64,000 bases of DNA from Escherichia coli (lineage in GTDB: Bacteria > Pseudomonadota > Gammaproteobacteria > Enterobacterales > Enterobacteriaceae): the NCBI RefSeq assembly GCF_003790525.1, contig NZ_CP033635.1. The stretch is one strand, 5' to 3'. A model generated the notes under the pieces. The model made no database searches, was not told where the DNA came from, and saw only the letters and a program-made list of their open reading frames with translations. Both the position numbers and the translations under genes were made by a program. Positions 59,362 through 60,807 of the stretch are shown here, one piece after another; within the stretch, counting starts at the first letter, position 1; each line of letters starts with the position of its first letter.

Positions 59362-60807
59362 CTATTTTTTAGCATTCGCATCCAGCGGAGCGGCATAACA
59401 ACTGTAAGAAAAACATTCGCTGGAATGATTGGCGATATCTTTAAAGTTGCTTTCAGCAACCCCCTCGAACATGAGTACCGTTCTGGACAACTCTCCGTTG
59501 TCATTTATATGTGGAAAATCAAATTGTGTACTGAATCGCCATACATCTGTCTTTTCTGGCTCGCTGTTCACAGAGATACGTCGATGGAAGACTCCTCCTG
59601 AAAACGTGCGCCAGAACAATTGTTGATCAAAATCTTGTAATATCTCAGAGTTGGATGCTATTTGATGTAGTAAACCTGCATACCGTGGACTGCCATTACG
59701 AGCAACATTATGCAAACCCTGACTAAAAGCATCAAACAAACAATAGATGTGATCACTAGTGAAAAAAGGTCTTAATTTTTTTTGTTCTTCATCGCTGTAA
59801 TCCAGGAGCATCTCATTGATTTCTTCCGGTGAGAATTTTAAGACAAAATTATCCTCAGGATTTGTTTCTTTCTTGTTTTTTTCACTATTCTTCTCCTCAA
59901 TGGTCTTCGCATTTTGTTTCGCAATTTTTTCCTCAGTTTTTTTCGCAATTTTTTCCGCAATTTTTTCCCGAGTTTTTGATTTTAGACTAACACCATCGAT
60001 GTCAACCGATGTTGTTTTCAGATCTCTCTGCGCGTCTTTCAAATTTGTCTTATAGAGATCAGGCACTTTATCGGCAGATAAGTATCCGGATGAAGAAATC
60101 TGGTGTGTACGCATGGGGGGCTGTTCACAAAGCATCGAGGCTATATCGTCTTTAAACTCTTTTACATTAAAGTTATCGGCATTAACCTTCCCTGTTATAA
60201 ACCCCGCATCGGCAATTTTCTTCTCTAATTGTTTTGTACGTTTAGAATAATAAGCGTTGTTATCATAAAACTTTTCAAGAAGGGCCCACTCCTCAAGTTG
60301 CCTTATGTGATTTTTCAACTGTTGATGATCTATTTTATATTCATGTGTACTAGAATCATTTTGGTTGCAAGAGTTACAGATTTTTAAGCATAATTTTCCA
60401 TCAGATTTATCATCTATGGTATCAGTGAAAATATAGGACACTTCAATATTCTGCCCGTTCTTATCAGTCATCTCATATGACCATTGCCCCGTTCGTTTCG
60501 CATTCTTAATGAGTTCGATGGACTCTGCAGGACAACCATGAAGAATGGGCAGAATTTTATCAGGATGCTTAATGAGTAAAATTATTATATTTACAATGTT
60601 TGAAAAGAAATCTTTGCTATTTTTTATTTCATCGATTTTTTCCGCTGAAATGTTTACTAAGTTTTCATTTCCGGAAATGAAAAGCAATTTGCCATGGGGG
60701 CTTTTTTTAAATTGTTCTTCTGTTTTAGAAAAAACATCCTCTTTAAAAGGTGGCAACTCAGTACCAGGAATAAACGGTTTCAATAAATTCGAATTTGAAA
60801 TTGTCAT
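59362..60807 (-). CDS. hypothetical protein, 481 aa, low-GC, central Lys/Glu-rich repeat; no family recognised
   Basis: Long uninterrupted ORF with GGAG Shine-Dalgarno ~7 nt upstream of ATG; AT-rich composition unlike flanking genes; lies where K-12 (as recalled) has only a short acpH-malZ spacer. Confidence 0.7.
   Translation of the reverse strand: MTISNSNLLKPFIPGTELPPFKEDVFSKTEEQFKKSPHGKLLFISGNENLVNISAEKIDEIKNSKDFFSNIVNIIILLIKHPDKILPILHGCPAESIELIKNAKRTGQWSYEMTDKNGQNIEVSYIFTDTIDDKSDGKLCLKICNSCNQNDSSTHEYKIDHQQLKNHIRQLEEWALLEKFYDNNAYYSKRTKQLEKKIADAGFITGKVNADNFNVKEFKDDIASMLCEQPPMRTHQISSSGYLSADKVPDLYKTNLKDAQRDLKTTSVDIDGVSLKSKTREKIAEKIAKKTEEKIAKQNAKTIEEKNSEKNKKETNPEDNFVLKFSPEEINEMLLDYSDEEQKKLRPFFTSDHIYCLFDAFSQGLHNVARNGSPRYAGLLHQIASNSEILQDFDQQLFWRTFSGGVFHRRISVNSEPEKTDVWRFSTQFDFPHINDNGELSRTVLMFEGVAESNFKDIANHSSECFSYSCYAAPLDANAKK

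What the first reader, a model, noticed from the sequence alone, without database searches (positions are those of the whole stretch)
59870..59995. Lys/Glu-rich imperfect tandem repeat inside the orphan gene
The protein segment REKIAEKIAKKTEEKIAKQNAKTIEEKNSEKNKKE is encoded by near-repeats of a short unit (variants of GCAATTTTTTCC on the + strand). Such repeats can be a flexible or coiled-coil linker between two functional domains, and at DNA level are prone to slipped-strand length variation.
Basis: seen in the sequence. Interest (0 to 1): 0.3.

Follow-up and report, generated by a model that had tools for sequence, protein, structure and literature searches.

The report
Variable four-codon repeat in orphan gene
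A 12-base repeat in the middle of an E. coli-only gene of unknown function gains and loses whole units between strains, changing the length of a charged, probably helical linker by four amino acids at a time; this is a real but ordinary kind of variation, best documented in E. coli tolA.

Summary
Window 59866-59970 (minus strand) encodes REKIAEKIAKKTEEKIAKQNAKTIEEKNSEKNKKE. It is built from a 12-nt unit, GCG-GAA-AAA-ATT (A-E-K-I): about 5 well-kept and 4 decayed copies, and the only tandem array in the 64 kb.

The window is E. coli SMS-3-5. The gene (59362-60807, 481 aa; ECs_0454 in O157 Sakai) lies in a 1.65-kb low-GC islet between acpH and malZ, present in about 1,125 of 5,426 complete E. 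coli genomes. I found no homologue outside E. coli and close relatives, and no domain match.

Alleles are 469, 473, 477, 481, 485, 489 and 493 aa, and every in-frame length difference maps to the array. Gene pairs that differ by only 2-3 substitutions differ by exactly 12 or 36 nt there. At least 10-16 independent events are needed. A repeatless 461-aa allele class never varies in linker length, which serves as a natural control.

AlphaFold2 predicts a helix of about 31 residues here in an otherwise unreliable model. No heptad register fits, so a coiled coil is not supported, and the ER/K charge pattern is absent. The array is not a phase-variation switch. Function is unknown; a tolerated or tunable spacer is inferred.

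It is a new member of a known kind and of low interest. The gene's dimorphism, with divergence peaking at the linker, is the one odd feature.

The parts
59362..60807 (-). Orphan CDS of 481 aa (WP_000155925.1, ECSMS35_RS02170; ECs_0454 in O157 Sakai), annotated as a hypothetical protein
   Evidence: ORF listing. RefSeq annotation of the 100%-identical record NC_010498.1. Sakai locus. No Pfam, NCBIfam, PHROG, PADLOC or PDB match. Only its own cluster found among 1.84 billion representative proteins.
59866..59977 (-). Imperfect tandem array of a 12-nt (4-codon) unit. Read in register on the coding strand the 12-nt units are CGGGAAAAAATT, GCGGAAAAAATT, GCGAAAAAAACT, GAGGAAAAAATT, GCGAAACAAAAT, GCGAAGACCATT, GAGGAGAAGAAT, AGTGAAAAAAAC, AAGAAAGAAACA (REKI AEKI AKKT EEKI AKQN AKTI EEKN SEKN KKET). 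Conservation decays towards the 3' end of the gene.
   Evidence: TRF, direct-repeat families, unit map in register, translation, shuffle test.
59908..59968 (-). Best-conserved core of the array (5.1 copies, 81% matches). It contains the three exact GCAATTTTTTCC copies at 59921-59932, 59945-59956 and 59957-59968. All the unit gains and losses seen in other strains fall here.
   Evidence: Indel positions at gene nt 839-888 in pairwise alignments and in the multiple alignment.
59887..59979 (-). Predicted single long alpha-helix (aa 277-307)
   Evidence: AlphaFold2 on 20 alleles gives H277-307 with block pLDDT of 64-79, in a model whose mean pLDDT is 40. The 493-aa allele gives H281-311 at pLDDT 47-56. 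This is weak to moderate evidence.
59937..59943 (-). A7 run (T7 on the + strand) inside the array unit GCGAAAAAAACT. Single-base changes seen in other strains lie in A runs of this kind.
   Evidence: Sequence. O78 strain 3 has a 1-nt loss in an A run inside the array and is annotated as frameshifted.
59876..59882 (-). A7 run (T7 on the + strand) at the decayed 3' end of the array (GTGAAAAAAACAAG)
   Evidence: Sequence. Strain 95-3192 has A8 here and is annotated as frameshifted.
60815..60818 (-). Shine-Dalgarno-like GGAG, 7 nt upstream of the ATG at 60807
   Evidence: Read from the sequence.
59342..60993 (.). Low-GC islet (GC 0.32-0.39, against 0.52-0.58 in the flanks) that carries only this gene, between the stop codons of acpH and malZ. 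In K-12 those two stop codons are 4 nt apart.
   Evidence: Composition profile. K-12 locus. Present in about 1,125 of 5,426 complete E. coli genomes.

Best explanation
This is an intragenic, in-frame variable-number tandem repeat. A 12-nt unit (GCG GAA AAA ATT, encoding A-E-K-I) was amplified in the middle of an orphan gene found in only some E. coli strains, and its copies have partly decayed. Because the copies are direct repeats, whole units are gained and lost, by replication slippage or by recombination between copies. This produces alleles from 469 to 493 aa in steps of 4 aa (shown). The array encodes a segment that is 56% charged and helix-prone, and it joins a conserved N-terminal part of about 276 aa to a conserved C-terminal part of about 160 aa (helix predicted; linker role inferred from the conservation pattern). 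Length changes persist because this segment acts as a spacer with no fixed packing. Each unit would add roughly one helical turn, about 6 A (inferred). Whether unit number tunes the protein's activity, as in TolA, or is simply neutral cannot be decided here. The gene as a whole evolves under weak constraint, which favours 'tolerated'. It is not a coiled coil and not an on/off switch.
For: The repeat is real and non-random.

Length variation comes in unit steps. The 120 closest protein clusters are 469, 473, 477, 481, 485, 489 or 493 aa long. The stretch between fixed anchors is 29, 33, 37, 41, 45, 49 or 53 aa.

At DNA level, P0059 to P0089 is +12 nt with 2 substitutions elsewhere in the gene. 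P0089 to P0060 is +12 nt (a duplicated GCGGAAAAAACT) with 3 substitutions. SMS-3-5 to P0002 is -36 nt, with 2 substitutions.

The events recur. Many allele pairs have 0 differences in 424 flanking residues but linkers of 45, 49 or 53 aa. Fitch parsimony needs at least 16 length changes on a tree of 115 alleles, and at least 10 events are distinguishable by unit content alone.

Among 10 sequenced alleles, every multi-base indel lies in the array.

Natural control: the repeatless allele class has a 37-aa linker in 118 of 118 variants matched.

The variants are in complete genomes. In a systematic sample of 60 of the 1,126 matching genomes, 27 had the window's length, 20 were +12 nt, 8 were +24 nt, 3 were out of frame and 2 were repeatless.

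A helix is predicted in two models. Diversity within the repeat class peaks at aa 281-300.

Weak constraint: dN/dS is 0.4-1.4 for the gene, against about 0.02 for acpH and about 0.15 for malZ in the same strains.

Precedent: the tolA in-frame repeat lies in helical domain II. It has 8-16 units among 234 isolates, and contraction is RecA-dependent at 6.9e-5 (PMC3477136).
Against: - Both AlphaFold2 models are poor (mean pLDDT 40 and 37). The helix reaches only pLDDT 64-79 in one model and 47-56 in the other, and it did not lengthen in proportion to the 12 extra residues.
- That the flanks are 'domains' rests only on conservation.
- No expression or protein evidence for the gene was found.
- The array is stable within clones. 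All 16 sampled O157-type genomes have the same length, so the mutation rate is modest and was not measured.
- The mechanism (slippage or RecA-dependent recombination) is not distinguished.
- Divergence between the two allele classes peaks exactly at the linker. Purely neutral spacer variation does not predict this.
Confidence: 0.75

Rival explanations
1. Adaptive linker. Unit number, and the linker sequence as a whole, is the target of diversifying or balancing selection, because spacing between the two halves of the protein matters for an interaction with a variable partner (host, phage or competitor). The array would then be an evolvability device, not a tolerated accident.
For: There are two haplotype classes, repeat-bearing and repeatless. 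DNA identity between them is 97-100% at the gene ends and falls smoothly to 12-15% at the array. Amino-acid diversity peaks in and next to the array. Length changes recur on identical backgrounds. dN/dS is near 1. For tolA, unit number changes stress tolerance (PMC3477136).
Against: dN/dS near 1 is spread over the whole gene and equally fits relaxed constraint. About 5% of sampled alleles are frameshifted. No partner, localisation or phenotype is known. Repeat turnover itself inflates apparent divergence at the array. The repeatless class has almost no diversity in aa 141-400, which suggests a young haplotype, not an old balanced one.
Confidence: 0.13
2. Phase-variation switch. The A7 runs inside and at the end of the array slip by one base and turn the gene off and on, as in contingency loci.
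For: Two of the three frameshifted alleles examined carry a 1-nt change in an A run inside or at the end of the array (O78 strain 3 and 95-3192).
Against: The repeat unit is 12 nt, so unit changes never shift the frame. A7 is short for high-frequency slippage. Only about 3 of 58 sampled full-length copies are out of frame, and the third frameshift lies outside the array (TUM14759, gene position 1025). Homopolymer errors in long-read assemblies could produce the same signal.
Confidence: 0.04
3. Coiled-coil or ER/K single-alpha-helix module. The segment either oligomerises the protein or forms a stiff, salt-bridge-stabilised rod.
For: A long helix is predicted. Charge content is high, and Ile/Ala recur every fourth residue.
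Against: No heptad register has more than 2 strong hydrophobic residues on 10-11 a/d positions, and 4-7 of those positions are charged. The hydrophobic moment peaks at period 4.0 and is low at 3.5-3.6. At i/i+4 there are 6 opposite-charge pairs against 7 same-charge pairs, no better than shuffles of the same residues (36% of shuffles reach the observed net score).
Confidence: 0.06
4. A DNA-level role. The phased A6-A7 tracts form curved, AT-rich DNA that nucleates H-NS silencing of the islet, and the protein repeat is a by-product.
For: The islet is 32-39% GC inside 52-58% GC flanks. The array is a run of A tracts at regular spacing.
Against: Nothing here tests it. The 12-bp spacing is out of phase with the 10.5-bp helical repeat, so the bends would not add up over the array (established DNA geometry; my inference). 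The repeatless class does without the array.
Confidence: 0.02

Closest known systems
Intragenic in-frame tandem repeat of E. coli tolA (helical domain II); Zhou, Michiels and Aertsen 2012, PMC3477136
   Same: Same species. A short in-frame unit inside a long, charged, Ala/Lys/Glu-rich helical segment that connects two other parts of the protein. The copies are imperfect, and less well conserved units flank the core. Copy number differs among natural isolates (8-16 units in 234 isolates). Changes are contiguous whole-unit deletions or duplications.
   Different: TolA is a conserved core protein of known function, and its unit number has measured effects on detergent, osmotic and phage phenotypes. 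Here the gene is a strain-variable orphan under weak constraint, and no phenotype or mutation rate is known. A whole allele class lacks the repeat. The tolA contraction rate (6.9e-5, RecA-dependent) cannot be carried over to this array.
Protein-coding VNTRs used for bacterial typing (for example the E. coli O157:H7 MLVA loci; the S. aureus spa and clf repeats, from my own knowledge)
   Same: A tandem array inside a gene whose copy number differs between strains in whole units.
   Different: This array did not vary among the 16 O157-type genomes sampled, so it would be a poor typing marker within a clone. It varies between lineages and within some of them (the 489-aa group). No paper mentioning this locus was found.
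ER/K single alpha-helix spacers and heptad coiled coils (from my own knowledge of these motifs)
   Same: A charged segment predicted to be a long helix, lying between two other parts of a protein.
   Different: Both defining sequence patterns were tested and are absent. The resemblance is one of likely role (spacer) only.
Contingency loci (phase-variable simple-sequence repeats in Haemophilus, Neisseria and others; from my own knowledge)
   Same: Repeat-mediated hypermutability inside a coding region.
   Different: The unit is a multiple of three, so the outcome is a change in length and not an on/off switch. Only the short A7 runs could shift the frame, and they rarely do.

Membership tests
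Intragenic in-frame variable-number tandem repeat (tolA-type) | Head-to-tail copies, inside a coding sequence, of a unit whose length is a multiple of 3 | tested here: met
   12-nt unit, 5.1 copies at 81% identity plus decayed copies, inside the 481-codon ORF. 0 of 2000 shuffles reach the lag-12 identity.
Intragenic in-frame variable-number tandem repeat (tolA-type) | Copy number differs among strains in whole-unit steps | tested here: met
   Seven length classes, 469 to 493 aa in steps of 4 aa. Clean 12-nt and 36-nt indels on near-identical genes. Seen in complete genomes.
Intragenic in-frame variable-number tandem repeat (tolA-type) | Length variation is caused by the array: it is confined to the array and absent where the array is absent | tested here: met
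   All multi-base indels among 10 alleles lie at gene nt 861-926. The repeatless class has a fixed 37-aa linker in 118 of 118 variants.
Intragenic in-frame variable-number tandem repeat (tolA-type) | Measurable instability within a clonal population, and its dependence on RecA or on slippage | not testable with these tools
   This needs a fluctuation or reporter assay. The only indirect evidence is recurrence on identical backgrounds and stability within the O157 clone.
Intragenic in-frame variable-number tandem repeat (tolA-type) | Phenotype depends on unit number | not testable with these tools
   The function of the protein is unknown.
Heptad coiled coil | Hydrophobic residues at a/d positions in one heptad register over at least 4 heptads | tested here: not met
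   The best register has 2 strong hydrophobic residues on 10 a/d positions, and 4-7 of the positions are charged. The hydrophobic moment at period 3.5 is 0.115, against 0.497 at period 4.0.
ER/K single alpha-helix | Excess of opposite-charge pairs at i/i+4 and i/i+3 in a segment made almost entirely of E, K and R | tested here: not met
   56% charged. At i/i+4 there are 6 opposite and 7 same-charge pairs. The net score is 2, against 0.14 +/- 4.2 in shuffles, and 36% of shuffles reach it. This is a home-made score, not a published predictor.
Contingency locus (phase-variable simple-sequence repeat) | Repeat changes shift the reading frame or alter promoter spacing, giving on/off expression | tested here: not met
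   Unit changes are always multiples of 12 nt. Rare 1-nt changes in A7 runs exist, but they are few and may be sequencing errors.
PKD domain (PF00801 / PF18911), for the N-terminal part of the protein | Score above the Pfam gathering threshold | tested here: not met
   No PKD hit appears even at E <= 1. There is only a pairwise resemblance of aa 102-158 to three PKD repeats of the metagenomic protein P0139 (E 8e-7; 31% identity in the two best stretches, 23% in a third that spans aa 24-158).

The most novel reading that the evidence does not exclude
The linker of this orphan protein is a long-lived polymorphism kept by selection. E. coli keeps a repeat-bearing, length-tunable haplotype and a repeatless, fixed-length haplotype, and sequence divergence between them peaks exactly at the linker. 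Unit number would then set the spacing between two uncharacterised domains that engage a variable external partner. That would make the locus a small, self-contained model of repeat-driven protein evolvability in a young gene.
Probability: 0.1. Interest if true: 0.5.

Novelty: new member of a known kind. Interest (0 to 1): 0.2.

Why it matters
On its own it matters little. It adds one more in-frame tandem repeat to the roughly 30 that Zhou et al. counted in E. coli K-12 genes (PMC3477136), this time in a gene K-12 lacks. Its modest value lies elsewhere:

- It shows cleanly, with a built-in control (the repeatless alleles), that a short imperfect repeat is enough to turn one spot of a gene into an indel hot spot.
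- It marks the linker and likely domain boundaries of an uncharacterised E. coli-only protein found in about a fifth of complete genomes, including O157:H7.
- If unit number turned out to matter, the locus would be a convenient second test case, beside tolA, for length tuning of helical spacers.

Tried and rejected
**Function by homology: nothing found**
- Pfam, NCBIfam, PHROGs and PADLOC gave only sub-threshold noise.
- PDB sequence searches with the protein and with a 20-allele profile found nothing (best E 0.08, to a dynein light chain through its low-complexity tail).
- phmmer against 1.84 billion representatives found only the protein's own cluster and fragments of it, plus one weak PKD-repeat protein.

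**Structure**
- Two AlphaFold2 runs (481-aa and 493-aa alleles, 20-23 near-identical sequences) gave mean pLDDT 40 and 37.
- I did not run fold searches, because models this poor give meaningless matches.

**Origin**
- Nothing in phages.
- The only 'plasmid' hits are two 4.9-Mb chromosomes mislabelled in PLSDB.
- Two degenerate DNA patterns scanned across 100,044 species-representative genomes found nothing. The second pattern matches 15 of 15 islet-bearing loci. The first would have missed alleles with Tyr at position 117.
- The polarity of the repeat (gain or loss) therefore could not be rooted with an outgroup.

**RNA**
- No Rfam family on either strand of 59200-61100.

**Literature**
- No paper mentions ECs0454, Z0502 or the protein accessions.

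**Rejected readings**
- Chance low complexity.
- Coiled coil and ER/K helix.
- Polymorphic-toxin-like variable C-terminus: the C-terminal 130 aa are conserved between the allele classes, and there is no room for an immunity gene, since the stop codon is 20 nt from acpH.
- The plus-strand ORFs at 59816-60055 and 59829-59990: these are Phe/Ser-rich mirror images of the array.

Full report
**1. Where we are**

The window is Escherichia coli SMS-3-5: NC_010498.1 matches at 100%. The finding sits in a 1,446-nt ORF on the minus strand (59362-60807, 481 aa, WP_000155925.1, 'hypothetical protein'). The ORF fills a low-GC islet (GC 0.32-0.39, against 0.52-0.58 either side) between the convergent genes acpH and malZ.

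In K-12 the stop codons of those two genes are 4 nt apart and the islet is missing. About 1,125 of 5,426 complete E. coli genomes carry the gene, always at this site, including O157:H7 Sakai, where it is ECs_0454. A GGAG lies 7 nt before the ATG.

**2.

- The minus strand of 59866-59994 translates to GVSLKSKTREKIAEKIAKKTEEKIAKQNAKTIEEKNSEKNKKE.
- GCAATTTTTTCC occurs three times exactly, at 59921, 59945 and 59957.
- TRF finds period 12 (5.1 copies, 81% matches) and its multiples 24 and 36.
- It is the only tandem array scoring >=50 in the 64 kb.
- Identity at lag 12 is 0.80. None of 2000 dinucleotide shuffles of the same 72 nt reaches that at any lag (maximum 0.69), and no other stretch of the window exceeds 0.58.
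- Read in register on the coding strand, the 12-nt units are CGGGAAAAAATT, GCGGAAAAAATT, GCGAAAAAAACT, GAGGAAAAAATT, GCGAAACAAAAT, GCGAAGACCATT, GAGGAGAAGAAT, AGTGAAAAAAAC, AAGAAAGAAACA (REKI AEKI AKKT EEKI AKQN AKTI EEKN SEKN KKET). The copies decay towards the 3' end.

**3. The predicted length polymorphism exists and is caused by the array**

The 120 closest protein clusters (all >=89% identical) are 469, 473, 477, 481, 485, 489 or 493 aa long. Three odd-length entries (466, 479) are the exceptions. Between fixed anchors (DIDGVSLK ... EDNFVLKF) the linker is 29, 33, 37, 41, 45, 49 or 53 aa. The rest of the protein has constant length.

At DNA level the changes are clean unit events:

| Comparison | Change in the array | Substitutions elsewhere in the ~1.46-kb gene |
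|---|---|---|
| 485-aa to 489-aa allele | +12 nt | 2 |
| 489-aa to 493-aa allele | +12 nt (duplicated GCGGAAAAAACT) | 3 |
| SMS-3-5 to the 469-aa allele | -36 nt | 2 |

The 36-nt deletion lies at the repeated GAAAAAATTGCG copies, as the unit maps in that call show.

Many allele pairs have no difference in 424 flanking residues yet have linkers of 45, 49 or 53 aa. Parsimony on a tree of the flanks needs at least 16 length changes among 115 alleles, and at least 10 events can be told apart by unit content alone. Among 10 full DNA alleles, every multi-base indel lies at gene nt 861-926.

The variants are not assembly noise. In a systematic sample of 60 of the 1,126 matching complete genomes, 27 had the window's length, 20 were +12 nt, 8 were +24 nt, 3 were out of frame and 2 belonged to a repeatless class.

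That repeatless class is a natural control. It is 461 aa long (for example strain APEC37), 80% identical overall. Its linker is LKTRRHLADIIHVKCMREKNYTTDQGFELPEEVIHAL or a single-residue variant of it, and it is 37 aa long in all 118 variants matched. The same gene without the repeat shows no length variation.

The array is not hypervariable. All 16 O157-type genomes in the sample have one length. Because the unit is 12 nt, in-frame outcomes are automatic and say nothing about selection.

**4. What the segment is likely to be in the protein**

AlphaFold2 on 20 alleles gives a poor model (mean pLDDT 40). Residues 277-307 form one long helix with block pLDDT of 64-79, and aa 327-348 are helical at 73-88; these are the only parts of the model above 60. 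The 493-aa allele again gives a helix (281-311), at pLDDT 47-56. A helix is therefore the best available prediction, held with moderate confidence.

The sequence does not fit a coiled coil. No heptad register places more than 2 strong hydrophobic residues on 10-11 a/d positions, and most of those positions are charged. It does not fit an ER/K single helix either: at i/i+4 there are 6 opposite-charge and 7 same-charge pairs, no better than shuffles. The hydrophobic moment peaks at period 4.0, the repeat itself, and is low at 3.5-3.6.

The segment is also the most variable part of the protein within the repeat-bearing class (diversity 0.152 at aa 281-300). Between the two classes, DNA identity falls from 97-100% at the gene ends to 12-15% at the array.

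I therefore read it as a charged, helix-prone spacer between a conserved N-terminal part (about 276 aa) and a conserved C-terminal part (about 160 aa). The spacer role and the figure of about 6 A per unit are inference.

**5. What the gene is**

It is a true orphan. There is no hit in Pfam, NCBIfam, PHROGs, PADLOC or PDB. Among 1.84 billion representative proteins only its own cluster and fragments appear, plus one weak match of aa 102-158 to the PKD repeats of a metagenomic protein. Nothing turns up in phages or true plasmids. No species-representative genome out of 100,044 matches either of two degenerate patterns.

The gene evolves under weak constraint: dN/dS is 0.4-1.4, against about 0.02 for acpH and about 0.15 for the 3' end of malZ in the same strain pairs. 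About 5% of sampled copies are frameshifted. A 481-codon ORF in DNA of about 35% GC, intact in most of about 1,100 genomes and preceded by a ribosome-binding site, is still best read as a real gene. Expression is unproven, and no paper mentions the locus.

**6. Comparison with what is known**

The closest documented case is the in-frame repeat of E. coli tolA. It lies in the long helical domain II that links the membrane anchor to the periplasmic domain. It has 8-16 units among 234 isolates, and unit number modulates detergent, osmotic and phage phenotypes. Contractions are RecA-dependent at 6.9e-5, and MutS has no effect on them (PMC3477136).

The present array meets the sequence-level criteria of that kind: an in-frame unit, whole-unit polymorphism, and variation confined to the array. 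It differs in host gene (a strain-variable orphan), in having an allele class with no repeat at all, and in lacking any rate or phenotype data. It is not a contingency locus. Only the A7 runs could shift the frame, and the two frameshifts seen there may be sequencing errors.

**7. What remains odd**

The divergence peak centred on the linker has shoulders of 77-88% identity reaching 150-250 nt to each side. The repeatless class is nearly invariant over aa 141-400. Neutral spacer variation does not predict either fact. Repeat turnover, an old recombination import or balancing selection could each contribute, and I could not separate them.

**8. Verdict**

This is a new member of a known kind, an intragenic in-frame VNTR in a helical linker, and of low general interest (0.2). 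There is a roughly 10% chance that the linker dimorphism reflects selection worth following up.

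Noticed in passing
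window 59362-60807, compared with L009:1955-3340 (E. coli APEC37): The orphan gene is dimorphic in E. coli. There is a repeat-bearing class (469-493 aa) and a repeatless 461-aa class. DNA identity between them is 97-100% at both gene ends and falls smoothly to 12-15% at window ~59937-59967, with shoulders of 77-88% identity. The repeatless class is almost invariant over aa 141-400. The cause is unresolved.
   Followed up: partly
window 59362-60807: The gene evolves close to neutrally. Pairwise dN/dS is 0.4-1.4, against about 0.02 for the last 540 nt of acpH and about 0.15 for the last 456 nt of malZ in the same strains. Its dS (0.02-0.09) is lower than that of its neighbours. The ORF is nevertheless intact in about 95% of sampled genomes.
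   Followed up: partly
window 60334-60504 (aa 102-158 of the orphan): This stretch resembles the first two thirds of a PKD repeat. It matches three stretches in the PKD-repeat region of a 947-aa metagenomic protein (P0139; E 8e-7 against the whole library; 31% identity in the two best stretches, 23% in a third that spans aa 24-158). Beta strands are predicted here. It is below the Pfam threshold in the orphan itself.
   Followed up: partly
window 60914-60961: A 20-nt inverted repeat, 85% complementary with an 8-nt loop, lies 33 nt after the malZ stop codon and about 100 nt before the orphan's start codon. It is probably the malZ terminator, in which case the orphan needs its own promoter. The consensus scan found no sigma-70-like site upstream of the gene on the minus strand.
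   Followed up: no
L004 (O78 strain 3), L010 (95-3192), L011 (TUM14759): These three complete genomes carry frameshifted copies of the gene. Two of the shifts are 1-nt changes in A runs inside or at the end of the array; the third is at gene position 1025. They may be real pseudogenes or homopolymer sequencing errors.
   Followed up: partly
L009:3528-5183 (APEC37): The neighbouring malZ gene is annotated as frameshifted in strain APEC37.
   Followed up: no
PLSDB records NZ_CP134663.1 and NZ_CP141089.1: Two 4.9-Mb E. coli chromosomes are filed in the plasmid collection as non-mobilizable plasmids. They are the only 'plasmid' hits for this gene.
   Followed up: no
window 59816-60055 and 59829-59990, plus strand: Two plus-strand ORFs (79 and 53 aa), rich in Phe and Ser, overlap the array. 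They are the mirror image of the A-rich coding strand and not independent genes.
   Followed up: no
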